Positions 188 through 42,749 of a stretch of 64,000 bases of DNA are shown in pieces. The notes beneath the pieces are model-generated. The model was not told the DNA's origin and did not search any database. It saw only the letters and a list, made by a program, of their open reading frames with translations. The stretch's first letter is position 1; each line of letters opens with the position of its first letter. The position numbers were made by a program, and so were the translations under genes. Origin of the DNA: Trypanosoma brucei (taxonomy: Eukaryota); assembly GCA_000002445.1 (NCBI GenBank), contig CM000208.1:736001-800000 (forward strand). Direction: 5' to 3'.

Positions 188-3100
188 ATGGCTGAGCCGC
201 CACCACCGCAACCACTACGTAAGGGTTTTTTTCGTGCTGATCCCCATGGCCTGCGGCCACCAGAGAGCCCTCGTGATGCTGAGGAGCCTGAAAACCATGA
301 CATTGTTGAGGATCCTCCACTCCCATCCAGTCGTAACTTGCCGCCTCCACGCTTGCGACCCATGGGTGGCGGACCACCATTGGCAGGGGCGGAAGCAGCG
401 GCAACTTCACATTCAAACAACCGGCCATCACCCGGGGAGGTCCCGCCGCTGCCGCGACCGGGGACTACGACTGCAGTCACATCGGCGCAATATAATAGTC
501 TGACTCCTCGGCAAGAACTTTTCAGCAGCCCACAAACAGCTGTCGAGGAAAATATTCCAGCTGGGTACGATAATCAAATGAACGTGACATCCAATGACTT
601 TTCTCATTCACAAGATACAGGGATAAAAAGAATCGGAGATGGTGCAACAGGCTCATCGGCGAAAACACGTTCCACGATTGCACATGCGCCAAGCGGTCGA
701 TTTTCTGAGGTAGTGCAGGAGCGACCCCCTATCGAATCTGTGGAGCAGCTATGTCAGCTCCAGACTCTAGCTCATCCAGTGGAGCGCTTTTTTGTTGAGT
801 ATCAACCCATGGCAACGCGTGGTTGCCGCAGTACCCAAGTACCCGTTGAGGAGGACGAAGCTCTGTTCAATCATCTCGCGGAGTACACGGATGATGATTC
901 TTTCTTTTCATCTGGTAGTGCTGTTCTTGAAGAAGACACACGTCGGCTCCAGAACGATCCGTTACGGGGCCGCGCTATTCGTTCTGTGTTCGAGACGCTC
1001 TCACTGCGCTCCCTCACAAAGGGTCGAATACCTTACGAATTGGAGGATCAGGAGCGCAGCAGTGCTCCCTGGTTGAAGCAAGTTCATCAACGGGCGATTG
1101 CACTTCATCATTCGTCATTCTTTATATTTCCTGCAGGTATGAAAGCTCGTGTAATTGCGTACAACATTCTACACCACTGGTTGACTGAAATGTTGCTTAT
1201 GTTAATCATCTTGGTATATTCCATGATGACAGCGGCCTGGTCCCGCGACACATGGCCCACATTGGAGAAACCGTCCTTCATGTTCTTCGCTGATGTTTTC
1301 TTCCTGTGTATCTACGCAATCGAATTTGTCGCACGGCTTTTTACTTCGGGCGCTGTTTCGCACTCCCGGGCATACTTTCGGTCGCCATGGCACTGTCTCG
1401 ACGCCGCAGTGCTTTTGCTGATGATATTGAACTGCACAAACCTCCAATCGATGTGGAATTTTTCGGCATTCCGTCTCATTCGTGTTTTGAAGTCGAGCAC
1501 ATACGTGCCTATTCCAATTAACATGAAGCTGCTGGCGAAGTCGCTTCTCCGTTCAACGTCCAATGTGGTGAAGGTGTCCACTATCCTTTTTTATGTGCTG
1601 TTGTTCTTCTCGCTCGTGGGCCTTCAGCTCTTCTCGGGAGTGCTCCAGCACCGCTGTGTTAGTCCAACCACGAAAAATGTAACAAATCAGTTGTGCCGCT
1701 TTAACCACAGTGAAAAAAATGAAAGTTATTACCACGGAGCTACGTGCCCCTCACCCCACTTATGCGTTGCCGACACATACGGAAATCCCCACCACGGCTA
1801 CCGCAGCTTTGACAGTGTGGGACACTCATTTTTATCGGCTTTCCAGATAATGACGTTTCAGGGCTGGACAAGCCTGCTGCAAGAGACATCAGACACTACA
1901 TCAGTAGCAGCTATTCTGTACTTTTTTTTGGCGATCCTGATCTGTGCGTGGATTATCCCTAGCTTATATTTGGGAGTCTTTATTGAAAAAATCGAGAAAA
2001 CGAGACGATTGTTTGTACAGAAACAACTGCAGCTATTTGACGGTATGCTACTGGAGCAGCGGCAACGATTGAATGAGGCAATCAAGCTTCGTGATTTTGT
2101 CGAACGCGATGAAAGTGGAAAATTACGCCGACATCCAATCGAACTCATCCGGTCTGCTTCACGGAGGATTCAGAGGTCGAAACTCTCGAACAGCCAAACA
2201 AGCATCGCAACTGAGTCAGAGTCGGGAGAACCCGCAGTCGTGGTGAAAAAACCCATTGGGGACACAACAAAAGGTCGATCTCGCTGGACAGACGAGCAGC
2301 GTGTTCAACTCCACCTTTCGCTCACACGACAACGTGATATTGCCAGTGGGGGTGAACGCAGACGACGTGTGGTGATCAAAAATGATGGTGAGATAAGCGG
2401 GGGAACTGCTGGCCTCCATTCGCAACGGAAGGGATCGGAGTCAATAGGGGAGCGGGCGATGATGGTGACGGGGGATTTTGCGCTTGGAGGCCGCGTTGGC
2501 GTGGTCCAGCACCATCCGCTCACTCACACTATTGGTGCAGCTCACGGCACGGACCTTCCCCTGGCAGTTCGTCTAGATAACGAGGAAGAACAGTTGAGGT
2601 TCCTCAAAGATTATCAAAACCCGATAGACAATGACATAATGAGGCGGACTAACACTTTCGAGGACACAAACGGAAACTTACATCCCTCTTTCGTGCTCAC
2701 CTCAACGCAGCGAAGGGGTGGAAGCTTCGATGAGGCATCCAACACAATTCGAACAACCACGGAAGCTGCTGGTGTCATTCCAAGCCGTCACTCAGCCACA
2801 CTGAATGGTCATAATACTAGTAGGATGGACTCCAACGGGAGTTTAGATGAACCTACATCAAAGACCCAAACCGTATCGAAACGCGGGTCCCCAATGCCGC
2901 GTTTGTCCTCCGGTCAGGTACCCGAAGTTATTATCCACGACCCCGAAGGCGGTGACTTCCGATTCGCTGAAACGCGTTCACAGAAGTGGGGAATTGTACG
3001 TAATATCTTGCACATGTTCACCGAAGGGTATCCTCGCATTATTACGCAGTATATCCGTGAACATCGTCGGATGCAGCGACGGTTTGGTCTCACACCCCTC

Positions 3101-6100
3101 AATTACGTGAATAAGTACGAAGATGACGTGCTTCGGAAACTGCGGCAGCGGCGTGTGCTTCAAGTAAAGGAACCAGGTGCACCGTCACAAACTTCGCGCG
3201 CAAGCGGTGACGAGGAACTTGTCGAAGTGAATGGAAATAAGGTTATCCTAACCGACAGCGATGATATTGGAGACCTGTCACCGATTCAAATGGCTACCAA
3301 TATTGTTAGAAATGTACCTGTAACGCCTTTCGGTGCCGTGATGCTGGTTATTGTCATCGTCAACGGCATTTTCAACGCAACGCGGTATTTTCAGCAACCA
3401 GAATATTGGGAAACTGCCCTTTTTGTCCTTGGTATTATTTTTACGTCATTTTTCGTGCTGGAGATTGTTGTCCGTGTCATAGGACTCGGGCTCGTTTCAT
3501 TTTTACTGGATTTCAACAATCTGTTGGATGTTACTGTTACAATTCTCGGGTTCGTGGAGCTCGCCTACGCACGGTCAAACGTCGTTACAGTGCTAAACTG
3601 GGTGAGGCTTCTGCGCCTATTTCGCACTTTGCCATTTGCACCTATGCGGCGGGTGTCACGAGTGCTGTTACTGGGTTTCGCAGACATGTTGTATGCGTTG
3701 TTCTTCTTCAGTATCTACATGTTTATGTGGATTCTCATCGGCATGAGTTTCTTCGGCGGTCCCAATGGCATGGTGGATCATACGTTCCAGGATTACTACA
3801 CGCGTGGAAATTTTGACACATTTTCTGGTGCTTCATTTGCTGTGTCGCAGGCATTCTCATATACTCGTGAGGAATGGGTGTACCTGACGTGGAACGGCAT
3901 GCAATCTCGTGGTGAGTACACCGTTCTTTATTTCATGGCCGTCGTCGGTGTGGCTTTTATTGCCCGCTACTTCTTCGTCGCCGTGTTCGCGTGGGCATGG
4001 CAGAGCGAGGAAGAGGAGGAAGAAAACTACGCAGCAATCGCTAAAGGTGGTTCAGGTGGCCGACGGGAAGTTACCCGACTGCGTTGGTTTGACTTTACTG
4101 TGTGGCGCTCGTTCAAGCACATACATGGAGGGTTCGAGAGGCGAGATGTTGCACCGGATGAAGTGTTTCATTTGAACGAAGATATGCGCAAACAACTTCG
4201 CATTGCGGAAGCAAAGGAACGGTTCACCAAAGAGGCCCTCGCGCAGACCGACTTGGCCATGAGTCAACGCCGGATGGGGTCTCCGATGGCCAGCCCTTCT
4301 GCAACCATGGGATATAATACAGACGGCTACGCACCGGCGGCGCAGGTTGGCACAGCTCCTAGATATGTTAACGTTGGTGGGCAACTGCAGCGTCACATAA
4401 ACCCATCAGTTGACTTTGTTGATGCGCAGGTTCCACCCCTTAACGCGCCCATATCCCAGTTTCAAGCTGAGAATGCGCAACTCCGGTTCGCCCGTCGGTA
4501 TAGCACCGTTCCCGCCTCGGTGTACACTCCTGTAATACAAGATGATGGTATTGATAGACCATCCCCTTCAGCCCGTTCAAGCCCGTCGGATGCGGGGGAG
4601 CGGAGCGGGGAGCTTGGTGGGGAAAGTCAGCAAAATGGCCAAGAGGAGGGAGACGGTCAATATTCTCCGAGGGGGGTGTCACCTAATGGAACGGGAGGGA
4701 GAGCGACTTCGACGGGCCTGCAACGAAAATCAAGTGTCCTTGGGCGTTTTCCCAGGTTGGGGTACGATCGAGCTGCAGGTAAGAAAGACGGAGGGTCAAG
4801 AAGTGTAAGCGCCTCCGCCATGCAACAGACGGGTGACGGTAACGAGTTGAGGGGAGACTACGTTAACGAGGGAGAGGTCAACGGTGGCAGCATGGTGTAC
4901 GAACACATTCTGTACCCTGGGCCGCGGTTACGCTACAAACACGTAATGCGAAACCAATACGTGCGGGTGTTTGAGCGTTGCTTAGATTGTAATACCTATC
5001 AACAGATGCCCTTGCGGGCCCCGCCGAATGTCCAACAACGAACACCGGAAGAATTACATGCTGAACACTGTCACATGGCTGCTGTGCGGAGTTCGCGTCA
5101 ACTGGTATTGAATGCCATAATGGGTTATGTTCGCTTGCAGAAAGATATTAATCAACCACCGACGCGTGATGCAGTTGAAACGGTACTTGGACAAGCTTGG
5201 AGTTGTGGAATGTTGCTGTTCGAAACAATCGAGTATCTCTCCTGTAGTGATATAGAGCAGCGGGAGTATCGAACGTGGGATCGCACACTGGAGGCGTTGC
5301 AATTGCAACAATGGTTGATAGGTCTGCATGTGGGCGAAGAACAAGTTGGTCGTGCAACCCTAGCCTACACATTGGCCCACCGAAAGAGGGAGAAACTCGC
5401 CGTGGAACACAAGTCGTTTGAGCTTTCGTGGCGTCAGCGTTCTTTCTTTTTCATATCTCCTTCGAACCCGGTGCGTCGTTTGTCAACGAGAATTATACAG
5501 TCACGATGGTTCGACATTTTTATTCTCACTGTTATATTCATTGCGTCATTTTGCCTATGTTTCCACATTCCCGGAAAGGCTAACGACCCAGAAACGGGTT
5601 TCGTTGTGCTACGTGCCTTTGACGGAATCTTCACCTGTATATTTTTGGTGGAGATGATAATGAAGTGGATCAGCATGGGTGTAATTCTCTTCAGACCGGA
5701 GGCATACTTCTGGCACTGGTGGAACGTTTTTGATTTCGTTATTGTCATTGTGTCGCTGATCGGATTGGCAGACCAACACAGCGCCCTCCGCTCCATCAAG
5801 GTTTTGCGTTGTTTTCGGATACTTATCCCTATGCGGGTGTCCAACTTCAATAGAAGTCTTTCCAAGATCTCGTCAGCCTTACTTGATTGTCTGCCGACAG
5901 TAGCGAACATTCTTCTGCTGTTTTTTATCAATTACTTTGTGTGGGCTGTGCTGGCAGTACGGCTTCTAAATGGCCTCACCCACTCTTGCAGTGATCCGTC
6001 CTTCGTCGACATTACGGCCTGCGAAGACGCCAAACATGAATGGTTGCCCAAAGTGCGTAATTTTGACTCTTTCTTCCAAAGTTTGCTGACAATGATAGAG

Positions 6101-8269
6101 GTCAGCGTGGGGTCGAAGTGGCTGGATGTTATTTACACGGGTGTAAATGGTCGAACGTCTGAACATGCGCCTATGGATGACCATTACCTTGCAAGGGGAT
6201 TCTTCTTCATCGTATACTATTATGTCTCCCACCTCATTTTGTTCTCACTGTTTACTGCGTCTATGATTTACAGCTATCTGTTAACCAAAAATGCAGCTGA
6301 GGGAGTATTGGGGATCACGTTTGAGCACCAGCTTTGGATTCGCATGCAACGTATGACACTGCAACTCAAGCCACGTGTAAAGCTTGTTCCTTTGTGCAAC
6401 CACGTGTCACAGTTTTTGCACAATGTTGTCATCCGCCCCATATTTGAGGTAGTGGGTGCGAGTGTACTTCTTCTCAACATTCTTACCATGGCATTGCACT
6501 GGTATGGCGAGACTAAATCGAAGGCAAGCGTGTTAGCTGCCTTTCAATATGTGTGGATGTTTTACTTTACCGTCGAGGCGGCCATGAAGATTGGAGCCCA
6601 CGGAATGCGGGCGTTCTCCCGGTGGGCGTTTTCTTTTGACTTCTTCGTGTTACTATTGTCCTTTATTGGGTTAATAGTGGATGCGGCAAGTAGCGAGGGT
6701 ATGCCGTTTAACGTGAACGTACTTCGTATGCTGCGGCTAGGTCGCTTCTTCTCCGCTGCAAAGGTTTTTAAGCCGATGAGGAAGCAGTTTTCATTACTGC
6801 ATGAAGTGCTGATTCGTTCGGCAGTTTCCCTTGCCAACGTGACGCTTATATTGTTTCTAGGGGTGTTCGTCTTCACGGTACTTGGTCTTCACCTCGTTGG
6901 AGGTGTTCCTGTAGGGGAAGGTGGTTACTTTGACGACCGGTACACAAATTTCAACAATTTTGGTAATTCGCTGATGATGACGTTTCGCCTCACCACTTTG
7001 GAGAACTGGAGCCCGTCGCTTCGGGAAGGTATGAATGTCACACGCAAATGCACTGAAGATGATTGCAGCGTGAACTATGGGTCGGCGTTTTACTGTCTTC
7101 TGCTACTTGTTTTCCTCGGGTTAATTGTTCTCAGTTTTTACATGGCGGTGATTGTGGATCATTACGTTACAGCTGCACGCATGAACACGAGCATAACACG
7201 TATTGAAGACCTGCGGAGGTTCCGTGATCTGTGGTCCGAGTTCGATCCCAATGGAGCACTCGTGCTGCACACACACGAACTCCCAAAACTTCTCGAATCT
7301 CTGAGACCACCCCTTGGTCTTACCTCCAGGCATAATCGTGTCGAGCTTCTTAGATTACTGCGAGAGTATGACATTCCAAATCACCGTGGGAAAGTTCACT
7401 ACCACGAGGTGCTTCTGCCGTTGGCTCGCAGGGTCCTGGCAATGGCCTTCAGCAGAGATACGATGGATTACAGGACAACGTTTGACACATTATGGCGCCA
7501 CTCCGAGAAGTCGCTCCGTGCACTGCCAACAGTGCTTGGTAAGCGCTCCCACGCAACCGCCGCGCAGCATTTTGCTGCGAGCTATGTGCAGGCGGTATGC
7601 CGAAGGAAGAAAGCTTGTCGAGAGGTGCAGAGGGTACGATCTGAACTTTGGCACGAGGGTCGTGCTGTTTGTGACGAGCTCGGTTTGCCCTATGCGGATT
7701 ACGGCTTTGGGAACCTTTTACTGGAGGGTCCGGATCCTATGCGAGATCTTGTGCCACGCAGTGCCTCTGCAGCGAGCTCTGGTGGAAAAGGCACCCGAAA
7801 AGGTGCCAGTGAAGCGGAGAACGCCGCCTCTTCCCCACTGTGGCGGGCAGGCCAGGCCGAATCGCCGTCGAGTCCAAGGAGTGAGGGAGAAACGATTGAC
7901 GGCAGGGCCCCTGCCGCCCGCCTTCCCGGCGCGTACCAACCGGCGATAGAAGAACGTGAGAAACGGTTTGGCCCCGATGTTCCGAACGCTCTTCGACGCC
8001 ACGAAACACGCTCGGAAAAACTTAGACGCAAGGATGAGGAGCGGATGCTGCAATCCACTCCCGATGATGCGGTGTCTTCACCAGTATCCAACGTGCGCTC
8101 GAATTCGCAGCGAGTTAACGTGGGCGAATACCAGCCACCACTAGGAACAGATCCCACCAGTTGGCTTGGTAGCAATGTAAACCGTGGGTCAACCGTAGGT
8201 GGACCAACGACAGAATCTCGCACGAGTAGCGTTATGCCTGCTCCACAGGGACCTACAGCACCAGAGTAG
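188..8269 (+). CDS. Voltage-gated Ca2+/cation channel-like protein of 2693 aa with four homologous 6-TM repeats. It has a long Pro-rich N-terminus and large cytoplasmic loops.
   Basis: The ORF begins with a true ATG at 188. It carries four hydrophobic repeat blocks, each with an arginine-spaced S4-like segment: RLIRVLKSS, RLLRLFRTLPFAPMRR, KVLRCFRILIPMRV and RMLRLGRFFSAAKVFKPMRK. Pore-loop motifs are TFQGWT, TREEW, IEVSVGSKW and TLENW. Its position immediately upstream of enolase matches my memory of the putative flagellar calcium channel Tb927.10.2880 in T. brucei (unverified). Confidence 0.88.
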   Translation: MAEPPPPQPLRKGFFRADPHGLRPPESPRDAEEPENHDIVEDPPLPSSRNLPPPRLRPMGGGPPLAGAEAAATSHSNNRPSPGEVPPLPRPGTTTAVTSAQYNSLTPRQELFSSPQTAVEENIPAGYDNQMNVTSNDFSHSQDTGIKRIGDGATGSSAKTRSTIAHAPSGRFSEVVQERPPIESVEQLCQLQTLAHPVERFFVEYQPMATRGCRSTQVPVEEDEALFNHLAEYTDDDSFFSSGSAVLEEDTRRLQNDPLRGRAIRSVFETLSLRSLTKGRIPYELEDQERSSAPWLKQVHQRAIALHHSSFFIFPAGMKARVIAYNILHHWLTEMLLMLIILVYSMMTAAWSRDTWPTLEKPSFMFFADVFFLCIYAIEFVARLFTSGAVSHSRAYFRSPWHCLDAAVLLLMILNCTNLQSMWNFSAFRLIRVLKSSTYVPIPINMKLLAKSLLRSTSNVVKVSTILFYVLLFFSLVGLQLFSGVLQHRCVSPTTKNVTNQLCRFNHSEKNESYYHGATCPSPHLCVADTYGNPHHGYRSFDSVGHSFLSAFQIMTFQGWTSLLQETSDTTSVAAILYFFLAILICAWIIPSLYLGVFIEKIEKTRRLFVQKQLQLFDGMLLEQRQRLNEAIKLRDFVERDESGKLRRHPIELIRSASRRIQRSKLSNSQTSIATESESGEPAVVVKKPIGDTTKGRSRWTDEQRVQLHLSLTRQRDIASGGERRRRVVIKNDGEISGGTAGLHSQRKGSESIGERAMMVTGDFALGGRVGVVQHHPLTHTIGAAHGTDLPLAVRLDNEEEQLRFLKDYQNPIDNDIMRRTNTFEDTNGNLHPSFVLTSTQRRGGSFDEASNTIRTTTEAAGVIPSRHSATLNGHNTSRMDSNGSLDEPTSKTQTVSKRGSPMPRLSSGQVPEVIIHDPEGGDFRFAETRSQKWGIVRNILHMFTEGYPRIITQYIREHRRMQRRFGLTPLNYVNKYEDDVLRKLRQRRVLQVKEPGAPSQTSRASGDEELVEVNGNKVILTDSDDIGDLSPIQMATNIVRNVPVTPFGAVMLVIVIVNGIFNATRYFQQPEYWETALFVLGIIFTSFFVLEIVVRVIGLGLVSFLLDFNNLLDVTVTILGFVELAYARSNVVTVLNWVRLLRLFRTLPFAPMRRVSRVLLLGFADMLYALFFFSIYMFMWILIGMSFFGGPNGMVDHTFQDYYTRGNFDTFSGASFAVSQAFSYTREEWVYLTWNGMQSRGEYTVLYFMAVVGVAFIARYFFVAVFAWAWQSEEEEEENYAAIAKGGSGGRREVTRLRWFDFTVWRSFKHIHGGFERRDVAPDEVFHLNEDMRKQLRIAEAKERFTKEALAQTDLAMSQRRMGSPMASPSATMGYNTDGYAPAAQVGTAPRYVNVGGQLQRHINPSVDFVDAQVPPLNAPISQFQAENAQLRFARRYSTVPASVYTPVIQDDGIDRPSPSARSSPSDAGERSGELGGESQQNGQEEGDGQYSPRGVSPNGTGGRATSTGLQRKSSVLGRFPRLGYDRAAGKKDGGSRSVSASAMQQTGDGNELRGDYVNEGEVNGGSMVYEHILYPGPRLRYKHVMRNQYVRVFERCLDCNTYQQMPLRAPPNVQQRTPEELHAEHCHMAAVRSSRQLVLNAIMGYVRLQKDINQPPTRDAVETVLGQAWSCGMLLFETIEYLSCSDIEQREYRTWDRTLEALQLQQWLIGLHVGEEQVGRATLAYTLAHRKREKLAVEHKSFELSWRQRSFFFISPSNPVRRLSTRIIQSRWFDIFILTVIFIASFCLCFHIPGKANDPETGFVVLRAFDGIFTCIFLVEMIMKWISMGVILFRPEAYFWHWWNVFDFVIVIVSLIGLADQHSALRSIKVLRCFRILIPMRVSNFNRSLSKISSALLDCLPTVANILLLFFINYFVWAVLAVRLLNGLTHSCSDPSFVDITACEDAKHEWLPKVRNFDSFFQSLLTMIEVSVGSKWLDVIYTGVNGRTSEHAPMDDHYLARGFFFIVYYYVSHLILFSLFTASMIYSYLLTKNAAEGVLGITFEHQLWIRMQRMTLQLKPRVKLVPLCNHVSQFLHNVVIRPIFEVVGASVLLLNILTMALHWYGETKSKASVLAAFQYVWMFYFTVEAAMKIGAHGMRAFSRWAFSFDFFVLLLSFIGLIVDAASSEGMPFNVNVLRMLRLGRFFSAAKVFKPMRKQFSLLHEVLIRSAVSLANVTLILFLGVFVFTVLGLHLVGGVPVGEGGYFDDRYTNFNNFGNSLMMTFRLTTLENWSPSLREGMNVTRKCTEDDCSVNYGSAFYCLLLLVFLGLIVLSFYMAVIVDHYVTAARMNTSITRIEDLRRFRDLWSEFDPNGALVLHTHELPKLLESLRPPLGLTSRHNRVELLRLLREYDIPNHRGKVHYHEVLLPLARRVLAMAFSRDTMDYRTTFDTLWRHSEKSLRALPTVLGKRSHATAAQHFAASYVQAVCRRKKACREVQRVRSELWHEGRAVCDELGLPYADYGFGNLLLEGPDPMRDLVPRSASAASSGGKGTRKGASEAENAASSPLWRAGQAESPSSPRSEGETIDGRAPAARLPGAYQPAIEEREKRFGPDVPNALRRHETRSEKLRRKDEERMLQSTPDDAVSSPVSNVRSNSQRVNVGEYQPPLGTDPTSWLGSNVNRGSTVGGPTTESRTSSVMPAPQGPTAPE

Positions 8270-9388: not shown

Positions 9389-10705
<1,317 letters not shown>

Positions 10706-11789: not shown

Positions 11790-14390
11790 ATGAGCTCCTT
11801 GACGGAATTGTTAACTGCGTTAGGTAGCCCAGACCCCTCAGTGCGGATTCCAGCGGAAGAACAAGTGAACCGAGCCAAGCAGGGAGGTTTAGGTGGGTTC
11901 CTGTGCAGCTTGTTGGAGGAGTTTCGGGATGAGTCAAAGCCACTGTTCGCTCGAAATATGGCTGGAACTTTGCTGAAAAACGCCGTTGCGCCAAATCTTC
12001 GTGAAACGGCAGCTCGTCGCGCTCTGGAACGGGAATGGAAAAATCTCCCGGTTGCCCTTCGGACTGAGGTGAAGCAATGCGTTCTGTCGACACTTGGTTC
12101 ACCAAAAAAAGATATACAGAATGTGGCAGCAAATATTATTGGGAATCTTTCGCGCATAGAGTTACCGGCAGGGGAGTGGCCGGACCTCATGGACATACTA
12201 ATAAGTGCAACGGAGTCTCAAAGTGAATTTCACCAGGTGGCAGCTCTAACAGCAATCGGTTACGTGTGCGAAGAAGGACATGACCACGAGGACGTTGAAG
12301 CAGCGTTGATAAATTATACGGGTGGCATTCTGAACGCTGTTGTGTGTGGTATGAACAGCGGAAAGGAGGAAGTGTGTTACTGCGCAACAAATGCGCTATG
12401 TAATGCCATGGAGTTCATTCATGACAATATGCAACAACAAAACCAGAGGGATCTTCTCGTCGACACTCTCTGCCGCACTGTCGCATCAAGTCACAACTCC
12501 CGTACTCGTGAAAAAGCGATGGAGTCGTTAGTTAAAGTTGCCGACATGTACTATTCCACACTTCCTAACTACATCGATCGGTTACACGCCATCACAACCG
12601 GGGCTATCTTTGGTGAAGAAGAAGGTGTTGCATTGCAGGCGATGCTTTTTTGGATTTCCATCTGTGAAACTGAATTGGATATGAAGGAAAGCGCTGACCC
12701 GCGGTGCTTATTCTACGCCCAAAAAGGGGCTTCCATGCTAGTGAATATTTGCCTTCAAACTATTGTGCGGCAGGAGGAGGGCCAAGAAGAGGGTGACTGG
12801 AACATTGCGATAGCTGGCGGTAAACTCTTACAGAGCCTTGCTATGTGTATTCAAGATCCTGTTGTCGATCTCGTAATGCCATTTGTATATAGTAACATTG
12901 AGGGCGCAACATGGAGAGAAAAAGAGGCAGCAGTTCTGGCATTTGGTTGTATTTTGAACGGTCCTAATGCAGATAAAATTCAAGATACCGTTGCGCAAGC
13001 TGTGCCCGGACTTCTGCAGTACATTCGTCATGATCATCCCTTGGTTGCTGATACAGCTGGCTGGGTACTCGCCACTGTGTGCGAACTTTTTGGTGACGTG
13101 TTTCTGCTTCAGCCGTGGAACCTACAGCAATTGATCAACATCGTCACACCAATGATCGGTGAAGGAACTGAGAAAGCTATCAGGGGGTGCCACATTGTAC
13201 ATAATCTCTCGCTTACCTATGAGGAGGAGGACTGCCAACCCACTAACGAGTTATCGCGATACTTTGCCGAACTGCTAAACGTGCTGCTTTTGGCGATTGA
13301 CAAGGGTGTCGATTACACTGTGAAAAGCGTCGCTCAAGAGGCGTTGAATGCGCTTATTGATGCAGCTGCCGTTGACTGCCTTCAGTTTCTTAATCTTCTT
13401 GTGCCTGAGCTGCACAAACGCATTTACAATGTGTTGGGAGAGCGTCAACAAGGCCAAGTGGGTGAGATGGAGGCTTCCTCATTGCTTGGCTTGCTGTGTG
13501 GGTCGCTGGGAAGCACTGCCAGGAAGTTGATGCTTGCGTTTAATGAGCATCTACAACCGAGTATGGAGATTGTACTGAAGATACTCGAGAACCCTCAGGG
13601 CACCGTTCTAGAGGAGGTGCTCACGATGTTAGGGAGTTTTGCTCATGCCGTTAAGCAAGGAATGGCACCTTACCTTGATCGCATCACAGGTCATGTGGTT
13701 AAAGCATTGCAGTGTGTGGATGAACCCGATCTTGTTACAGTGGCTGTGGGTACGGTGGGTGATCTTTCGTTGGGGGTACAGAAAGATCTCGCCCCTTACG
13801 TGGAAGGTATTCTTGGCGCCTTGTACGGCAATCTGCAGAACCCCGAAGTGGATCGCTGTGTAAAGTGTATTTTCCTCAACTGCATCGGCGATATTGTGTT
13901 GAACGTAGGCGAGGCGAACTTTGCTCAGTATGTAAACATTTTTATGCCGTTTGTCCATTCCATGTTTGAGCAGAGTTGTGGAGTAAACGTAACTGATGAT
14001 CCCGATAATGAGGAGTATGTTATGTCCTTATGGGAGAGTATCTCTACTTTGTACACGAGTGTGTGCCAAAGTTTTAAGGGCAACGAAATCCCTCTGGCTC
14101 CATATTTACAAAACATGCTACAGTTTGTCCTTTACACCGCACCTCTCGCCAAGTCTCACGGCTACGTTGAGGTGTTTATAGCGATCATCACAGTTATTGG
14201 CGATATGGCATCTGTATTGAAGAGTGTTTCCTTAAAAGAGTTGAGGCAGCAGGCGCAAAGCGCTCTTCTCTCCAGCGAGGTGGTGGCCATCGTCAAAGTG
14301 GCCGCAGAATTGAATGACGGACGTGATGGTTTCAGGGAGCAAGTGCGGTGGGTGGAAAGCCAACTTCAACAACTTTCAAAGGTGGTGTAA
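11790..14390 (+). CDS. Importin beta-1 / karyopherin beta (KAP95-like), 866 aa
   Basis: N-terminal importin-beta domain: MSSLTELLTALGSPDPSVRIPAEEQVNRAKQGGLGGFLCSL...ARNMAGTLLKNAV. The rest is HEAT-repeat-like and the size is as expected. The ATG at 11790 was verified. Confidence 0.85.
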   Translation: MSSLTELLTALGSPDPSVRIPAEEQVNRAKQGGLGGFLCSLLEEFRDESKPLFARNMAGTLLKNAVAPNLRETAARRALEREWKNLPVALRTEVKQCVLSTLGSPKKDIQNVAANIIGNLSRIELPAGEWPDLMDILISATESQSEFHQVAALTAIGYVCEEGHDHEDVEAALINYTGGILNAVVCGMNSGKEEVCYCATNALCNAMEFIHDNMQQQNQRDLLVDTLCRTVASSHNSRTREKAMESLVKVADMYYSTLPNYIDRLHAITTGAIFGEEEGVALQAMLFWISICETELDMKESADPRCLFYAQKGASMLVNICLQTIVRQEEGQEEGDWNIAIAGGKLLQSLAMCIQDPVVDLVMPFVYSNIEGATWREKEAAVLAFGCILNGPNADKIQDTVAQAVPGLLQYIRHDHPLVADTAGWVLATVCELFGDVFLLQPWNLQQLINIVTPMIGEGTEKAIRGCHIVHNLSLTYEEEDCQPTNELSRYFAELLNVLLLAIDKGVDYTVKSVAQEALNALIDAAAVDCLQFLNLLVPELHKRIYNVLGERQQGQVGEMEASSLLGLLCGSLGSTARKLMLAFNEHLQPSMEIVLKILENPQGTVLEEVLTMLGSFAHAVKQGMAPYLDRITGHVVKALQCVDEPDLVTVAVGTVGDLSLGVQKDLAPYVEGILGALYGNLQNPEVDRCVKCIFLNCIGDIVLNVGEANFAQYVNIFMPFVHSMFEQSCGVNVTDDPDNEEYVMSLWESISTLYTSVCQSFKGNEIPLAPYLQNMLQFVLYTAPLAKSHGYVEVFIAIITVIGDMASVLKSVSLKELRQQAQSALLSSEVVAIVKVAAELNDGRDGFREQVRWVESQLQQLSKVV

Positions 14391-28681: not shown

Positions 28682-29746
28682 ATGTCAACCGGAGCATTTA
28701 CTGAGGCCGATAGCCTTATGGCAAGTGCAAAAAAACATCTTAAAACTGGTTTGTTTAAACGCAAACCCGATTGGGGCTCTGCAGCGGACGACTACGAGAG
28801 AGCTGGTGGGCTCTACGTAAGTGATGGGAATGTGGAGAAGGCATGTGAAGCATATAATAGCGCGTGTGAAGCATATGAAAAGGTGGGTAGCCTTGTGTCA
28901 GCATCACTTATAAAATCCAAACTTGCTCAGTTCCTCGCTGAGCAGGCCCGGAAAGGATGTGGTGGGAAGAGTTTAGACAAAAAACTGATGGATAGCGCCG
29001 TGGAATCCTATCGTGGAGCCGCCAGGTATTATGCATTAGATGGAAAGTTTGACAGGATGGCAGAGACACTCGTTAAGGCGGCGGAATTAATTGACCCGAC
29101 AACACACTGTGCTTTCGCCTCTCCCCTCGCTGCAAAGTCAAATGTGGAAGGAGACCGGGAAAAAGTGAAGCAAGTGTGTGCACTTCTGGAGGAAGCAGCA
29201 GATGCAATAGAGGAGAATGAGGACAATAACAACAGCTACATCATTCGTCTACCTGATATATATCGTAAGTGGATGCTTGCCTGTTTGCGTAGTGGTGATG
29301 TGCTAAGAGCAATTGCTGTACTAGAGCGTCAGCTTGGTATCACGAATGGTTCAGGCGATGGCACCAGCAAAATAAAGGGAAAATGTGCAGGGGGGTTTTA
29401 TGCGAGACTTAATCAACCACACAATGTGGCTAAAACGGGGCTCGAAATTATTGTGCTGTGTTTGTCACTTGGGGACCTCGTACTGGCACGCATGAAGCTG
29501 GATGGGCTGCGCGGCATTTCTGGATTTGCAAACACAAAGGAAGAATCAACCGTGCGATCGCTTCTCGAAGCATTTGGTGAGCGTGACACAGAAATGCTAC
29601 AAGAAACATTGAAAGATTCAACTCTGATGTTCATCACGAATGACATCTCGAGGATGGCAAAAAAATTAGTGATTAGGTCCACCGAAGCAAAGCCGGACAC
29701 ATGTGAAGGAGGTGAGGTTATTGACGGTGAGGAAGACTTGCGATAA
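28682..29746 (+). CDS. Gamma-soluble NSF attachment protein (gamma-SNAP; SNAP/Sec17 family), 354 aa
   Basis: The N-terminus ASAKKHLKTGLFKRKPDWGSAADDYERAG aligns closely with the human gamma-SNAP AKAEKYLKTGFLKWKPDYDSAASEYGKAA, as I recall it. The rest is TPR-like helical-repeat character with an acidic C-terminus. The ATG at 28682 was verified. Confidence 0.8.
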   Translation: MSTGAFTEADSLMASAKKHLKTGLFKRKPDWGSAADDYERAGGLYVSDGNVEKACEAYNSACEAYEKVGSLVSASLIKSKLAQFLAEQARKGCGGKSLDKKLMDSAVESYRGAARYYALDGKFDRMAETLVKAAELIDPTTHCAFASPLAAKSNVEGDREKVKQVCALLEEAADAIEENEDNNNSYIIRLPDIYRKWMLACLRSGDVLRAIAVLERQLGITNGSGDGTSKIKGKCAGGFYARLNQPHNVAKTGLEIIVLCLSLGDLVLARMKLDGLRGISGFANTKEESTVRSLLEAFGERDTEMLQETLKDSTLMFITNDISRMAKKLVIRSTEAKPDTCEGGEVIDGEEDLR

Positions 29747-30129
29747 AAAAAAAAGATAAAAGTAGAAGTGACAACAGCTTTGTAGTACGGGTTCCTTTGA
29801 TCAACTTGTCGGACACACGGAGCGACCAACGGCTCCCCCGGGTGCTCCTTCCGTTGCTTTCCTCAGTGTGAGAAGTTTTCCCTGCGTATATGTTTAAAGC
29901 CATTGCTTCTGGAAAATCTGATGCTGTATGGTATTGCCGATGCTTTAATGCTTTCATTTTCTTTCTTTTTTTTCCTCACCTTCAAACGAAATATTGCTCG
30001 TTTCACATCCCCTGCATGCGCTATGCTAAATTTTTTTTTAAATCTATGTTCGTTTTCTTCTACGCAAATCGCTTGCTTCACACACACACGAGGTCGAAGG
30101 AAAAAAAAAGAAGAAAAGATTTGTGGTCA

Positions 30130-33100
30130 ATGGGCGACGCAGACGTCGCGACTGATCAGCAACAACAACGCTTGAAACAGGTACCAAACAGGGGAGATGC
30201 TATTAACGCAAATGCTGCCAACAGTTTTGACGATGAGGATGGTAACCAATGCCTTTGGCATCGCCGATCTCGTGAGGTACACGCACATTTGAAACGGCGG
30301 GTGGCGGGCATTCTTACGCAGATACGGTGCACGAGCAGTGCTAACCACTTTGATCGTCACAGAGTTGAGGTGGACGAGCTGTTGCGCTGCGACGCCCCCA
30401 TGGGGTTCACCCCTTCGATGATCCTTGCAGGTGTGCCTGATATTATCCACCTACTTACTGACGCTGTGAGGGATCGCAGGGTACTGGAGGTTGGTAGGGA
30501 AAATCGACAGGCCATATCGGCGCTCACCCCAATATGCCAAAGTTCGAATTTCCTTATAACTCCGAACCCTTTCTTCGTGAAGGAAATTGCATCGTCCATC
30601 TGGAGGGACTCGAGTAAATTCAAGGGAGACCGCGGAAATAACACACCTAGTAATGCGATGAGTTCAGTAGGCTCAAATGGTGCAAAGGGTGATAATATAG
30701 ATTGCTTTTTACCACCACTTGTTCGCCATGCAAAAGGTTCAGCACCGCAGGAGTATCCCCATACGACGAGTGCCTCACCCACTCGAGAAGGCAAACGGCT
30801 GGTGGCGAGAATAGGGAAGTCAAATGAGGTAACAACTGCAGCGGGGACGGCTGCGGGATCGAGGAAATGCGTGCGTGACGGAAGCAGTTCACCGCTTGAC
30901 AAATCGGGGCCGACATTACCGCGAATAGACGCTAACCGGCAGTCGGCGAATCGGCATGTGAACGGAACCGGGCAGGGAAACCAGCCACTACAGCAACAAT
31001 CAAACGGATTTCCCTCAGCGTGCGCGGTCTCGGATGCCGCCAACGCCAAGTGCGCTCCCCTTCTTTGCGATATCCCGTCTACTGTCGAGGCAATGATGTA
31101 CCACTGTGCCTTCCCGCTTGTGTGTATCACCCCGGAAGACTACGAAAGCCGTGCAAGTGCTACACACATACTGGTATCCACCCTTTCCTCAATAATTAGA
31201 AAAACTTCCGACAATAACCTTCATACTGAGTGCGAAGGGATTTCGGGGGTTGACAATGTCGCGAGCCAAAGCACTTCTGATGATGGTAAACCCGGAAGCA
31301 ATATCAACGGGGATTACAACTGTAATGCTCCTCGGCCGACGAATGCCGAACAAAAAAACTGTGATTTGGAGCATAAAAACATGCTTTACCGACTGCGTCG
31401 CGCGGCACTTCATACGCTCCACGCCCTCCTCTCCATCATGGATTCGGAGAATGCGAGTTTGGTAAACAAGCATTTTGCGGAGCGCGATCGTCAACTGTAC
31501 GATGCGTTTGGTGACATCAACTTCTCTACAGATAATACAATAATGGATATGTGCAGCCCTATGGATGAGACAAGGGAAAATGACAATGAAAGGGTCGAAA
31601 GCGTGAGCGTGAAAGTCCTCAGCGGGGGAACAATGGGCTCCCCGAGAGCGGTATCTCCCCGCCGTCGTCTGTCCACCGCATGCGTGAAAGTCATGCAGAG
31701 GACACAAAGAAATATGTTGGTTCGCCGTGTCGCGCCACTGAGTGTATATAACAACGCCGTTGATGTCAACGTACTTATCCCTTTGCTGGAGCGATGGACA
31801 TTCATCTTGGATAAAGGCACGGGGAGCAACGGAGTGCTGGATTCTGCACGTTTTCTGACTCAGCGTCCAGGGGCGTGGGAAGTAGAGGAAAGGAGCAACA
31901 AAATGGCAAATAAGAAATTGGCGATGGCATCCATCACCCGCTGTGGGCAAGAGGGTCATCATGTCATACCGGCAGAAATGCACAGTGAGAAAATTACAAC
32001 AGGGGGTGGGAGAGATGAAACCGTGGGTGCGGTTGTTCGTATGTGTGAAAAGGACGTGGAGGAGATCTACTTGCTCCTTCGTATCTGCCTTCAGCTGTCC
32101 CTGTACAAACATCACCTAAACGTTTCAGCTCGTATGGCAGACACTTTTGGAGGCACTGGTAATAATACCTTCAAAAGTATTCCCGTACTGGTTTGCCTGA
32201 CAATGGCCCGGTGCATGGAAGGAGATAGGCATCTTCCCTTGTGTGTGGAGTGCTTGTGGAATATGCTCGACGTAATCCCCGAGGAGGCTGCAAAGGAAAT
32301 ACTCCACCACACCGGAGATGAAAGCGGCGCCCACTTCCAACAGGAAGGAAAAAAACAGAGTGAGTACGCGACCACTAACTCTCCGTTATCCAGATTGTCT
32401 GCCACTGAAGCCCTTCTACATTGTCTTTTGCAGTTTCTTGTCTCGGGGCACCGGCTTGAATACCGTGAGCTACGCAATGACATCATTGTGTTGATGCTCA
32501 TTGTTCTCCGTACCCATACAGCAGGGCTCAGGCAGCAGGAAGAAACATTGCTGTATAATTCTGAGTTGGAGCACCCAGCCTTACCCCCGGGATCAACTAT
32601 CGAGGCTATTACAACCATGGCTAAGACAGTATTCGATCTGGTCTGCGGACCAGAGTTGCAGGTTTTTGGGACAACTGCAGAACTCACACTAGAATCTCCG
32701 GAGTTATTCAGGCGGTATCATACTGTGCTCTCCCCCACTACACGAAGAGAAAATTTGCAATTTAAGGTACTTGGTTGGCGCTTTTTGGAAGCCTTTCATG
32801 AATGGCAAAACGTCCGGCTCACGTTGGAACTACGTTGCCGCCCACACATGTCACGCACAACGTTGAGCACGCGTGCCCCCGCCCCATCGGGATATGTCTT
32901 TGACACAAGCAATACTGTCTTTGATGTGTGCGGTGCCGGATTTGTAGACCTCCTTCTTATGTATGTAGATACGGAGTGCAGTAACGAGCTAGTTCTCGCA
33001 TGGTCAAGAGAAGATTTGCTTACTCTACAGGAGGAGTCATGGAGGGTTATTTTGGCCATGGTTGAGCCCCACGCAGAGCATTCTGTCACTAAGGCCTTTG

Positions 33101-35493: not shown

Positions 35494-36090
35494 ATATCTA
35501 ACTATCTATATATTATAAAATTATTGTATGAGATCAAACAATAGATGATCCATCTACAGCGTCGCCTTGATATCGCAGCAGTTTCCACATGTAGATCCGG
35601 AAACGAAGGGGGATGTGGTGCCCCAACGTTTCTCAATATTGTAATACTTTATTTGTAAGCTCTGCAACAGAAGAAGGAGGGAAGAATGACACCGACGTCC
35701 GTCATCAGCCTATTCACCGCTGTACGCCCAGCCTATGCTTCACTTTCTGGATATCAGAAGGTGTTTGTTCTGCATAATTTTTTTTGAAATCCTCTATTGA
35801 TTCTTTTGTGTTATCTAAACTCTTTTCTGTTCATTTCGGATATTGTGTTTAGAGCATACAAACACGCACATACGCGGTCGTGGTGATTGTTCACTGTGAG
35901 AACTCTTTTTAGGAAGGGGGGCAAGTAGAAACGAGCGTGGTGAGCCCCGGTGGTAGACGCCTGTATGAGGTTATGGAATAGATTCTCTCGTCTTGGAAAC
36001 CTTTTGTGTGCGTGTGCTGCATGTGGTTGTTCGTTTACACCATGGCGTTGTTCATCGTCTCCATTATTATCGTCTTTCAGTGCATACAAC

Positions 36091-40893: not shown

Positions 40894-41100
40894 GAACCGG
40901 GAGGGTGTCATAGTGGACGAACTATTTCCTGTTGTAATGATAAGTGGAATGGAATATAATGTAATATGTGATGATGTGAAGTATGGAGCATAATTTGAAT
41001 GGAACTAATGATGGAATGGGGTTTTTGTGGATAGGAGTGCATCTCCTGTTGATCATGCAATCCATATCCCTTAATGAGGGCACAGCACTCCTTATTAGTA

Positions 41101-41153
41101 CTTTTACTTTTACTTTGCTTTTGCTTTTTCTTTTTTTGCTTTTGCTTTTGCTT
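41101..41153. repeat. (CTTTTG)n-like pyrimidine microsatellite inside repeat copy 1; identical unit at 57344-57396 in copy 2
   Basis: cttttacttttactttgcttttgctttttctttttttgcttttgcttttgcttg. It lies upstream of Rpn11 and probably doubles as a poly-Y splice signal. Confidence 0.8.
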
Positions 41154-41373
41154 GTTCTGTGAATGCTATCATTGGGTGTCTTATGCCCTTGCTTCTGTCG
41201 TTTGGCTGCTTTTGTTACTTTGTCAGCCACTTACTATATTACCATCCTTTACCTTAATTCTACCTCTCTTGCACACATACCACAACTGGGATACTAAAAG
41301 GGGGGTTATTGAACGGTAACAAACAAAATAACTCGTGCTCTGATTAATTGCATCGCAACGTGGTGGTTTCGAG

Positions 41374-42291: not shown

Positions 42292-42749
42292 GGAAACAGG
42301 GTACATTGCGTGTGCTCCAGCTATTACTGACCATACTTTTTATATGCGCTACCGTATTGATTTTTTATCACCCTCTCTATAACGTTTACGGGGTGTTATG
42401 CTCCTTTTCTGCACTCCCGTTTCTGTGACAATGTGGCGTGATTACAATCAGCACAGGATGGCATTTGCTAGTGATGTGGTGTCATCTTCGTGAATGGCAT
42501 GTCATTTGTTTGTGGTGGGGTAATTACTCGTCCTGAATTTCCTAGTGATTCTACAAACATATCTCTGCAATACCTCACTTCCATATTCCTTTAATTGCTC
42601 TAATCCCGGTGATTGCTCGTTGCGATCCCAGTGTCGTGTGCCCAACGCACTTAGTGACACTCAGGACAAGTGGTGAAGGGGGCGAAAAGCTTTTATTCTA
42701 CCGTCTCCGATTGGGTGAAGCAGGGTATCGAAACTATCGTCTACTGCAT

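What the first reader, a model, noticed from the sequence alone, without database searches (positions are those of the whole stretch)
1850..7009. Cav-like four-repeat channel whose inferred selectivity-filter ring is Q/E/E/E, with an insertion in the repeat-III pore loop
I aligned the four pore loops by eye to the Cav motifs (T-x-E-x-W). They read TFQGW (repeat I; Gln codon cag at 1859-1861), TREEW (II; 3863-3877), TMIEVSVGSKW (III; 6091-6120, with about 4 extra residues between the acidic position and the Trp) and TLENW (IV; 6995-7009). The repeat-I position that is Glu in Cav (EEEE) and Asp in Nav (DEKA) therefore appears to be an uncharged Gln. The S4 segments are present but carry only 3-5 basic residues each. 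Together with the very long Pro-rich N-terminus and large cytoplasmic loops, this suggests a divergent channel. Its ion selectivity cannot be assumed from the 'calcium channel' label.
Basis: partly seen in the sequence, partly recalled or inferred. Interest (0 to 1): 0.5.

Follow-up and report, generated by a model that had tools for sequence, protein, structure and literature searches.

The report
Known trypanosome calcium channel, QESE filter

Summary
The region lies inside one 2693-aa ORF (window 188-8269, + strand). Its product is 100% identical to T. brucei TREU927 XP_822541.1 (Tb927.10.2880, FS179/TbCaV), a four-repeat Cav/Nav-type channel.

The repeat-I Gln (Q558, CAG 1859-1861) aligns with the Cav Glu and the Nav Asp in profile alignments. 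It is invariant in all 23 kinetoplastid orthologues examined, so it is not a sequencing error.

The repeat-III reading is wrong. 'LLTMIEVSVGSKW' aligns without gaps to Cav1.2 'MALFTVSTFEGW'. This places Ser1976 at the filter position and Glu1971 inside the P1 pore helix. An AlphaFold model and the absence of any length variation among orthologues agree. The ring is therefore Q/E/S/E.

This is already in the literature:
- Huang et al. 2025 state the QESE ring. They also show that TbCaV rescues yeast cch1/mid1, raises Ca2+ entry in HEK293T cells, and is essential.
- Prole & Taylor 2011 noted fewer acidic filter residues in this same protein.
- Pozdnyakov et al. 2018 included it in a survey of four-domain channels.

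One question remains open. No electrophysiological measurement of ion selectivity for the cloned channel turned up in the papers I searched. A ring with only two carboxylates predicts weaker Ca2+ selectivity.

Verdict: real feature, partly misread, already known.

The parts
188..8269 (+). Complete CDS of the channel (2693 aa plus stop). Identical to T. brucei brucei TREU927 XP_822541.1 / Q38BV7 (Tb927.10.2880; FS179; TbCaV).
   Evidence: ORF. Zero differences from P0038. Pfam Ion_trans 2.9e-136 in 4 stretches.
188..1117 (+). Cytoplasmic N-terminal extension of about 310 aa, Pro-rich at its start.
   Evidence: 25% Pro in aa 1-100 against 5.3% for the whole protein. Repeat I begins near aa 311 in the PDB alignments.
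1118..2020 (+). Repeat I (S1-S6), approximate limits aa 311-611.
   Evidence: phmmer alignment to Cav2.3 repeat I. Profile A2 against Cav1.2 and NALCN repeat I.
1472..1492 (+). S4 of repeat I, RLIRVLK (3 basic residues).
   Evidence: Same segment as listed for Trypab1 in Pozdnyakov 2018 Table S2.
1859..1861 (+). Repeat-I filter residue Gln558 (CAG), in TFQGW.
   Evidence: Aligned to Glu of Cav2.3, Cav3.2 and Cav1.2 and to Asp of Nav1.4. Invariant in 23/23 orthologues and in 5 T. brucei-group sequences.
3254..4015 (+). Repeat II, approximate limits aa 1023-1276. It is followed by an EEEEEE run at nt 4007-4024.
3869..3871 (+). Repeat-II filter residue Glu1228 (GAG), in TREEW. Glu1229 (3872-3874) is at n+1.
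   Evidence: Aligned to Glu of Cav3.2 repeat II 'TQEDW'. It is E or D in 22/23 orthologues and Q in T. rangeli.
5441..6277 (+). Repeat III, approximate limits aa 1752-2030.
6071..6109 (+). Pore helix P1 of repeat III (FFQSLLTMIEVSV, aa 1962-1974).
   Evidence: AF2 secondary structure, helix 214-226 of the model. Glu1971 aligns to Thr of Cav1.2 'FTVST'. It is invariant in kinetoplastids. In other protist channels it coexists with a canonical filter Glu ('FEISTTEGW' in P0034, 'FEICTTEGW' in P0035).
6113..6115 (+). Repeat-III filter residue Ser1976 (TCG), the middle of the 3-residue P1-P2 turn G-S-K. Lys1977 (6116-6118) is at n+1.
   Evidence: Ungapped alignment to Glu of Cav1.2/Cav2.3 'T(F/G)EGW', Asp of Cav3 'KDGW' and Lys of Nav1.4 'TFKGW'. 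The AF2 turn is aa 1975-1977. It is S in 7/7 Trypanosoma and A in the other 16 orthologues, with no length variation.
6380..7186 (+). Repeat IV, approximate limits aa 2065-2333.
7001..7003 (+). Repeat-IV filter residue Glu2272 (GAG), in TLENW.
   Evidence: Aligned to Asp of Cav3 'TGDNW' and Ala of Nav1.4 'TSAGW'. It lies in the AF2 P1-P2 turn, aa 2270-2273. It is E in Trypanosoma and Q in most Leishmaniinae.
7217..7621 (+). C-terminal regulatory region: GPHH (Cav IQ-associated) match aa 2344-2380, pre-IQ-like VLLPLARRV (7409-7435) and IQ-like VQAVCRRKKACR (7586-7621).
   Evidence: Pfam GPHH 27.9 bits against a cut-off of 26.8. Motif positions. The same motifs are listed for Trypab1 in Pozdnyakov 2018.

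Best explanation
The region is the pore-forming part of TbCaV (FS179, Tb927.10.2880). This is the single-subunit, four-repeat, Cav/Nav-type cation channel of the Trypanosoma brucei flagellar membrane.

Its selectivity ring is Gln558 / Glu1228 / Ser1976 / Glu2272 (QESE), with all four pore loops of normal length. The ring therefore holds two carboxylates rather than the four of animal Cav channels. They sit on repeats II and IV, which should lie opposite each other across the pore. Polar uncharged residues occupy I and III. A further Glu (1229) and a Lys (1977) occupy the next positions outward.

Shown by others: the channel lets Ca2+ into cells and is essential to the parasite.

Inferred: with half the usual ring charge it should bind Ca2+ less tightly than an EEEE channel and may discriminate less well against monovalent cations. 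Gating may not be classically voltage-driven in this clade.
For: Identity: the ORF is 100% identical to XP_822541.1. Its neighbours (enolase, importin-beta, CBP110) all lie on one strand, as in kinetoplastid polycistrons.

Family: four Ion_trans stretches plus GPHH. Top PDB matches are Cav2.3 4.8e-101, Cav3.2 3e-100 and Nav1.5 1e-97, with NALCN only about 2e-37. The fold search returns Nav and Cav structures.

Filter placement:
- Pairwise phmmer alignments.
- Kinetoplastid repeat-III and repeat-I profiles against Cav1.2, all ungapped at the loop.
- Four repeat profiles against an EEDD Cav3 and a DEKA Nav1.4.
- AF2 model with the P1 helix at aa 1962-1974, the turn G1975-S1976-K1977 and the P2 helix at 1978-1986.

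Conservation: Q at repeat I in 23/23 orthologues. The ring is QESE or QDSE in Trypanosoma.

Literature:
- 'QESE' stated for TbCaV; AID absent; pre-IQ/IQ kept (PMC12172032).
- Rescue of yeast cch1/mid1.
- 74% more Ca2+ entry in transfected HEK293T cells.
- RNAi lethal, and Ca2+ entry lost.
Against: - No coordinates of the model could be inspected, so ring geometry (II opposite IV, side chains facing the pore) is inferred from the known Cav/Nav architecture.
- AF2 confidence around the repeat-III turn is only moderate (block means about 65-75).
- The published functional tests (growth halo, fura-2) show Ca2+ entry but do not measure selectivity, conductance or voltage dependence of the cloned channel.
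- A 2022 review says the native T. cruzi current is not voltage-activated and that no molecular link to the gene had then been made.
Confidence: 0.88

Rival explanations
1. One reading: the ring is Q/E/E/E, with Glu1971 as the repeat-III filter residue followed by a roughly 4-residue insertion before the Trp.
For: Only the by-eye match of T-x-E in 'TMIE' to the Cav T-x-E-x-W motif (sequence).
Against: - All pairwise and profile alignments are ungapped from the P1 helix to the Trp and put Ser1976 at the Cav Glu column.
- No orthologue shows any length difference in this loop.
- AF2 places Glu1971 inside the P1 helix and leaves a normal 3-residue turn.
- Other protist channels carry both the helix Glu and a canonical T-x-E-G-W Glu ('FEISTTEGW' in P0034, 'FEICTTEGW' in P0035).
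- The published ring is QESE.
Confidence: 0.02
2. Gln558 is a sequencing error or a strain-specific change (CAG in place of GAG).
For: A single-base difference separates the Gln and Glu codons.
Against: - Gln is present in all five T. brucei-group sequences: TREU927, T. b. gambiense, T. equiperdum and two read-archive assemblies. No difference falls at 558, 1228, 1976 or 2272.
- Gln is present in 23/23 kinetoplastid orthologues down to 34-38% identity.
Confidence: 0.01
3. The protein is in practice a poorly selective cation channel. Na+ or K+ would pass as readily as Ca2+, as in NALCN-like leak behaviour, or it might be gated by lipid rather than voltage. Ca2+ entry would then be one component of its current rather than the result of Cav-like selectivity. 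This overlaps with, and does not exclude, the best explanation.
For: - Only two ring carboxylates, and a Lys at n+1 of repeat III.
- Leishmaniinae orthologues have only one ring carboxylate (QDAQ or QEAQ).
- Prole & Taylor 2011 raised this possibility.
- Native T. cruzi currents are reported to be sphingosine-activated and voltage-independent.
- From my own knowledge: single Glu-to-Gln changes in Cav1.2 lower Ca2+ affinity by one to two orders of magnitude (Yang et al. 1993; Ellinor et al. 1995).
Against: - TbCaV rescues a yeast high-affinity Ca2+ influx mutant and raises Ca2+ entry in HEK293T cells.
- The native T. cruzi current is said to have an L-type-like permeability sequence.
- Fungal Cch1 works as a Ca2+ channel with three acidic residues.
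- The ring does not match DEKA or EEKE.
Confidence: 0.35
4. The protein acts mainly as a structural component of the flagellum attachment zone, and ion conduction is secondary.
For: Three papers mention FS179 together with flagellar attachment or the flagellar membrane.
Against: - Knock-down abolishes Ca2+ entry in both life stages.
- Heterologous expression confers Ca2+ influx in yeast and HEK293T cells.
- All four pore modules and S4 segments are conserved across kinetoplastids.
Confidence: 0.05

Closest known systems
TbCaV / FS179 (Tb927.10.2880, XP_822541.1) of Trypanosoma brucei, and its kinetoplastid orthologues (clade 'WSC XXXIII' of Pozdnyakov et al. 2018)
   Same: It is the same protein: 2693 aa with 0 differences. 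The QESE ring, absent AID and retained pre-IQ/IQ motifs are as published.
   Different: Nothing differs. The window simply contains this gene.
Animal high-voltage-activated Cav1/Cav2 alpha-1 subunits (EEEE ring)
   Same: - Four 6-TM repeats, S4 with spaced Arg/Lys, and P1-turn-P2 pore loops of identical length.
- A GPHH/pre-IQ/IQ-like C-terminus.
- The repeat III and I pore profiles match Cav1.2 best.
- Ca2+ entry function.
   Different: - The ring is QESE, not EEEE.
- No AID motif in the I-II linker.
- It works without alpha2delta or beta subunits.
- Much longer N-terminus and I-II and II-III loops.
- Under 30% identity.
- It sits in a separate clade in the published phylogeny.
Low-voltage-activated Cav3 (EEDD ring)
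   Same: Whole-protein similarity equal to that of Cav2.3 (3e-100). The vertebrate Cav hits returned by the big-database search were all T-type.
   Different: The ring is EEDD against QESE.
Nav1 sodium channels (DEKA ring, IFM inactivation particle)
   Same: Comparable overall similarity (1e-97) and fold. There is a basic residue near the repeat-III filter (Lys1977).
   Different: - The Lys is at n+1, not at the filter position. The ring is not DEKA.
- The III-IV linker has LGIT where Nav has IFMT.
NALCN and fungal Cch1 (EEKE/EKEE; three acidic residues in Cch1)
   Same: - Precedent for four-repeat channels with fewer than four ring carboxylates that still carry or regulate cation or Ca2+ entry.
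- TbCaV functionally replaces Cch1/Mid1 in yeast.
- The repeat-I pore profile scores NALCN almost as high as Cav1.2.
   Different: - Whole-protein similarity is far weaker (about 2e-37).
- No ring Lys.
- The published phylogeny places the NALCN/Cch group apart from the kinetoplastid clade.

Membership tests
Four-domain voltage-gated cation channel superfamily (Cav/Nav/NALCN type) | Four tandem homologous 6-TM repeats on one polypeptide | tested here: met
   Pfam Ion_trans 2.9e-136 in 4 stretches. All four repeats align to Cav and Nav repeats.
Four-domain voltage-gated cation channel superfamily (Cav/Nav/NALCN type) | S4 helices with basic residues at every third position | tested here: met
   RLIRVLK, RLLRLFR, RSIKVLRCFR and RMLRLGR plus 2 Lys, giving 3-5 per repeat.
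Four-domain voltage-gated cation channel superfamily (Cav/Nav/NALCN type) | P1 helix, short turn and P2 helix re-entrant pore loop between S5 and S6 | tested here: met
   AF2 model of repeats III-IV: P1 at 1962-1974, 3-residue turn, P2 at 1978-1986; P1 at 2258-2269, 4-residue turn, P2 at 2274-2282. Repeats I and II were checked by alignment only.
Animal Cav1/Cav2 (HVA calcium channels) | EEEE selectivity ring | tested here: not met
   The ring is Q558/E1228/S1976/E2272.
Animal Cav1/Cav2 (HVA calcium channels) | AID (beta-subunit binding motif, QQxExxLxGYxxWIxxxE) in the I-II linker | tested here: not met
   No GY..WI or related pattern in aa 596-1030. Also stated as absent in PMC12172032.
Animal Cav1/Cav2 (HVA calcium channels) | C-terminal GPHH / pre-IQ / IQ calmodulin region | tested here: met
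   GPHH 27.9 bits, just above the 26.8 cut-off. Pre-IQ-like and IQ-like motifs located and listed by Pozdnyakov 2018. Calmodulin binding itself was not tested.
Animal Cav1/Cav2 (HVA calcium channels) | Phylogenetic placement inside the HVA Cav clade | not tested
   No tree was built here. The published tree puts kinetoplastid channels in their own well-supported clade XXXIII, outside Nav, HVA Cav, LVA Cav and NALCN/Cch.
Animal Cav1/Cav2 (HVA calcium channels) | Depolarisation-activated, highly Ca2+-selective current | not testable with these tools
   Ca2+ entry is shown by yeast rescue and fura-2. I found no voltage-clamp data for the cloned channel. The native T. cruzi current is reported to be voltage-independent.
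Cav3 (LVA calcium channels) | EEDD ring | tested here: not met
   Aligned against a Cav3.2-like sequence: Q/E/S/E opposite E/E/D/D.
Nav1 sodium channels | DEKA (or DEEA/DKEA) ring | tested here: not met
   Aligned against Nav1.4: Q/E/S/E opposite D/E/K/A. Lys1977 is one position after the filter column.
Nav1 sodium channels | IFM-type hydrophobic inactivation particle in the III-IV linker | tested here: not met
   No IFM or MFM. The equivalent is LGIT, aa 2041-2044.
NALCN / fungal Cch1 | EEKE/EKEE ring (NALCN) or three-acidic ring (Cch1), and closest sequence similarity to that group | tested here: not met
   No ring Lys and only two ring acids. NALCN scores about 2e-37 against about 1e-100 for Cav and Nav.
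Kinetoplastid TbCaV/FS179 orthologue group | Sequence identity to the characterised T. brucei protein, and a shared Gln at repeat I | tested here: met
   0 differences from XP_822541.1. Gln at repeat I in 23/23 members.

The most novel reading that the evidence does not exclude
Across the whole kinetoplastid clade the canonical ring holds only one or two carboxylates. It is QESE or QDSE in Trypanosoma, QDAQ or QEAQ in Leishmaniinae, and QDAE or QDAD in three deeper, unnamed relatives. Charge has been moved to the next position outward: Glu at repeat III n+1 in all non-Trypanosoma members, and Lys, Arg or Gln there in Trypanosoma.

The evidence does not exclude that these channels use a different, low-affinity permeation mechanism. 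That could mean weakly selective cation flux through a pseudo-two-fold filter, perhaps lipid-gated rather than voltage-gated. In that case 'CaV' would be a misnomer in biophysical terms.
Probability: 0.35. Interest if true: 0.4.

Novelty: already known. Interest (0 to 1): 0.15.

Why it matters
TbCaV is an essential, drug-targetable Ca2+ entry route of the sleeping-sickness parasite. Its divergent pore is part of the case for parasite-selective inhibitors (PMC12172032).

For this scan the main value is corrective. The ring is QESE, not QEEE, and there is no pore-loop insertion. The fact is already published.

The open question is how selective a two-carboxylate ring is. It can be tested directly by patch clamp and by ring-restoring mutants. 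It would inform how Ca2+ selectivity arises in non-EEEE four-domain channels.

Tried and rejected
- Glu1971 plus an insertion as the repeat-III filter. Rejected by ungapped pairwise and profile alignments, by the absence of orthologue length variation and by the AF2 secondary structure.
- Lys1977 as a Nav-like filter Lys. Rejected as the canonical position: it aligns to the Gly after the filter residue and is Q or R in other trypanosomes. It is kept as an n+1 feature.
- Sequencing error at Gln558. Rejected.
- A full-pore structural model was not attempted. The protein exceeds the 1200-aa limit and a loop-deleted concatenate would not be a window sequence. Only repeats III-IV were modelled. Coordinates cannot be inspected, so only secondary structure and fold matches were used. 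The fold search did not discriminate Cav from Nav.
- I looked for the selectivity-filter table for 'Trypab1' in the Pozdnyakov 2018 supplement. The text held covers only accession, S4, inactivation-gate and IQ tables; the filter motifs are in a figure.
- No tree was built, and no wider search was run for Gln-at-I channels outside kinetoplastids. It would not change the verdict.
Full report
**Observation.** The flagged interval lies inside one long ORF, window 188-8269 on the + strand, 2693 codons. All four quoted pore-loop strings are there in that frame:
- TFQGW at nt 1853-1867, with the Gln codon CAG at 1859-1861 as stated.
- TREEW at 3863-3877.
- TMIEVSVGSKW at 6089-6121.
- TLENW at 6995-7009.

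The side remarks also hold.
- The first 100 residues are 25% proline, against 5.3% overall.
- About 310 residues precede repeat I.
- The I-II and II-III loops are about 411 and 475 residues.
- The S4 segments read RLIRVLK, RLLRLFR, RSIKVLRCFR and RMLRLGR followed by two Lys, so 3-5 spaced basic residues each.

**What the gene is.** Pfam finds Ion_trans in four stretches (2.9e-136) plus a marginal GPHH match: 27.9 bits against a 26.8 cut-off. Against all PDB chains the best matches are Cav2.3 (4.8e-101), Cav3.2 (3e-100), Cav2.2 and Nav1.5 (1e-97). NALCN is far behind at about 2e-37.

The protein-database search returned a 90%-identity cluster whose members include XP_822541.1 / EAN77713.1 / Q38BV7, 'calcium channel protein, putative', from T. 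brucei brucei TREU927, on a 4.05-Mb contig. The window's product differs from that entry at 0 of 2693 positions.

The neighbours are enolase, an importin-beta-like protein, a LepA-type GTPase, a JAB/MPN protein and the kinetoplastid-specific CBP110. All lie on the + strand, as expected for a trypanosome polycistron. So this is Tb927.10.2880, known as FS179 or TbCaV.

**Placing the filter residues.** Four independent lines agree.

(i) Pairwise phmmer alignments.
- 'fqimtfqgwtsll' pairs with Cav2.3 'fqcitmegwttvl' and Cav3.2 'fqvitlegwvdim'. Gln558 is opposite Glu.
- 'sytreewvyl' pairs with Cav3.2 'iltqedwnvv'. Glu1228 is opposite Glu.
- 'lltmievsvgskwldviy' pairs without a gap with Cav2.3 'lltlftvstgegwpqvl' and Cav3.2 'lmslfvlsskdgwvnimy'. 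Ser1976 is opposite Glu and Asp.

(ii) Profiles built from 13 kinetoplastid orthologues.
- The repeat-III profile 'llttfevstGaeWldviy' aligns ungapped, with top posterior marks, to Cav1.2 repeat III 'mmalftvstfegWpellY'. It also aligns in the same register to Cav1.2 loops I, II and IV.
- The repeat-I profile 'stfqimtfqgWtsll' aligns to Cav1.2 'tvfqcitmegWtdvl'.

(iii) Local hmmsearch of all four repeat profiles against an EEDD T-type channel and a DEKA Nav1.4. This gives Q opposite E and D, E opposite E, S/A opposite D and K, and E opposite D and A.

(iv) An AlphaFold2 model of aa 1749-2354 with a 22-sequence alignment (mean pLDDT 70.8, pTM 0.70).
- In repeat III, P1 is a helix over aa 1962-1974 (FFQSLLTMIEVSV), followed by a three-residue turn G1975-S1976-K1977 and P2 from W1978.
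- In repeat IV, P1 is aa 2258-2269, the turn is T-L-E-N and P2 starts at W2274.

It aligns with Thr of Cav 'FTVST'. Other protist four-domain channels carry both this helix Glu and a canonical filter Glu ('FEISTTEGW' in P0034, 'FEICTTEGW' in P0035). That alone shows the two positions are distinct.

The ring is Q558/E1228/S1976/E2272, and there is no insertion.

**Conservation.** I aligned 23 kinetoplastid orthologues. They comprise T. vivax, T. theileri, T. grayi, T. conorhini, T. cruzi, T. rangeli, Leishmania species, Porcisia, Leptomonas, Phytomonas and several unnamed read-archive assemblies, three of which are deeper-branching at 34-38% identity.
- None shows any length change in any of the four loops.
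- Gln at repeat I is invariant (23/23).
- The ring is QESE or QDSE in Trypanosoma (QQSE in T. rangeli), QDAQ or QEAQ in most Leishmaniinae, and QDAE or QDAD in the deeper sequences.
- The n+1 residue of repeat III is K, R or Q in Trypanosoma and Glu everywhere else.
- The five T. brucei-group sequences differ at 0-8 sites, none of them in the ring.

Gln558 is thus an old, fixed feature and not an error.

**Other family marks.**
- The I-II linker has no AID-like GY..WI pattern.
- The III-IV linker has LGIT where Nav has IFMT.
- Pre-IQ-like (VLLPLARRV) and IQ-like (VQAVCRRKKACR) motifs are present.
- The model's fold matches Nav and Cav structures with TM-scores of 0.54-0.67 over its length, but this does not separate the two.

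**How it works: shown and inferred.**

Shown by others for this protein (Huang et al. 2025, PMC12172032):
- Flagellar plasma-membrane location.
- RNAi is lethal in bloodstream and procyclic forms, with loss of Ca2+ entry.
- Rescue of yeast cch1 mid1 without accessory subunits.
- A 74% rise in Ca2+ entry in transfected HEK293T cells.

Inferred here:
- In the Cav/Nav architecture the repeats surround the pore in order. The two ring carboxylates (II and IV) should therefore face each other, with Gln and Ser between them, giving a pseudo-two-fold filter.
- Glu1229 and Lys1977 lie just outside the ring.
- From my own knowledge of Cav1.2 mutagenesis (Yang et al. 1993; Ellinor et al. 1995), neutralising ring glutamates lowers Ca2+ affinity stepwise. 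A QESE ring is therefore expected to pass Ca2+ but to bind it more weakly and to exclude monovalent ions less well.
- Fungal Cch1, with three acidic residues, is a precedent for Ca2+ entry through a sub-EEEE ring.

In the papers I searched I found no reversal-potential or block measurements for cloned TbCaV. The degree of selectivity is the real open point.

**Comparison and membership.** It works like a Cav-type Ca2+ entry channel and belongs to the four-domain superfamily. It fails two defining marks of animal HVA Cav (EEEE ring, AID). It also fails EEDD for Cav3, DEKA and IFM for Nav, and the ring Lys of NALCN. The published phylogeny of 277 four-domain channels includes this very accession as 'Trypab1'. 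It places kinetoplastid channels in their own well-supported clade XXXIII, outside Nav, HVA Cav, LVA Cav and NALCN/Cch. I did not build a tree.

**Novelty.**
- The reduced acidity of the ring in this accession was noted in 2011. [quoted passage not shown] They also warn that selectivity needs testing.
- The ring is given explicitly as QESE in 2025.

The finding is therefore real, partly misread and already known. What my comparison adds is only descriptive: the clade-wide pattern of ring and n+1 residues.

**Limits.** Only repeats III-IV were modelled. Model coordinates could not be inspected. Confidence at the repeat-III turn is moderate. Taxon names of several read-archive orthologues are unknown.

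**In passing.**
- The window carries a 2733-nt segmental duplication, 39842-42574 and 56085-58817, at 99.74% identity. It contains the 3' part of an RZ-finger ORF and a JAB/MPN gene.
- Several long + strand ORFs have no Pfam match.

Noticed in passing
window 39842-42574 and 56085-58817: A 2733-nt segmental duplication at 99.74% identity. It carries the 3' part of an RZ-type zinc-finger ORF and a complete 305-aa JAB/MPN gene, giving two identical copies at 41374-42291 and 57617-58534.
   Followed up: partly
window 9416-58534: Every ORF of 300 aa or more but one is on the + strand, as in a kinetoplastid polycistronic unit. They include enolase (9416-10705), an importin-beta-like protein (11790-14390), a SNAP/TPR protein (28682-29746), a LepA/GUF1 GTPase (35950-38271) and CBP110, a nuclear cap-binding subunit (42609-45764). 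Seven long ORFs have no Pfam match, for example 29890-35493 (1867 aa) and 49207-53112 (1301 aa).
   Followed up: partly
orthologues P0008-P0020 (Leishmaniinae, Phytomonas), columns of window aa 558/1228/1976/2272: Most Leishmaniinae orthologues have only one acidic ring residue (QDAQ or QEAQ). They carry Glu at n+1 of repeat III, and often Asp at n+1 of repeats I and IV, as if the acidic ring had moved one position outward.
   Followed up: partly
window 6116-6118 (Lys1977): A basic residue sits immediately after the repeat-III filter position. It is K in T. brucei, T. vivax, T. theileri and T. grayi, R in T. cruzi, Q in T. conorhini and T. rangeli, and E in all non-Trypanosoma orthologues. It is adjacent to, but not at, the site of the Nav/NALCN filter Lys.
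   Followed up: partly
window 6098-6100 (Glu1971): A Glu inside pore helix P1 of repeat III is invariant in all 23 kinetoplastid orthologues. It is also present in unrelated protist four-domain channels (motif 'FE[IV]'). Animal Cav channels have Thr at this position. Its role is unknown.
   Followed up: no
P0007 (T. rangeli orthologue), repeat II loop 'DRQEW': The T. rangeli sequence has Gln instead of Glu or Asp at the repeat-II filter position (ring QQSE). It is the only orthologue with this, seen in a single sequence and not verified.
   Followed up: no
window 4007-4024: A run of six Glu (aa 1274-1279) directly follows S6 of repeat II, at the start of the II-III loop.
   Followed up: no
window 1118-2020 (repeat I): The repeat-I pore profile scores NALCN (about 5e-29) almost as high as Cav1.2 (5e-31). 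For the whole protein NALCN is some 60 orders of magnitude weaker than Cav or Nav, and its best stretch is repeat I.
   Followed up: no
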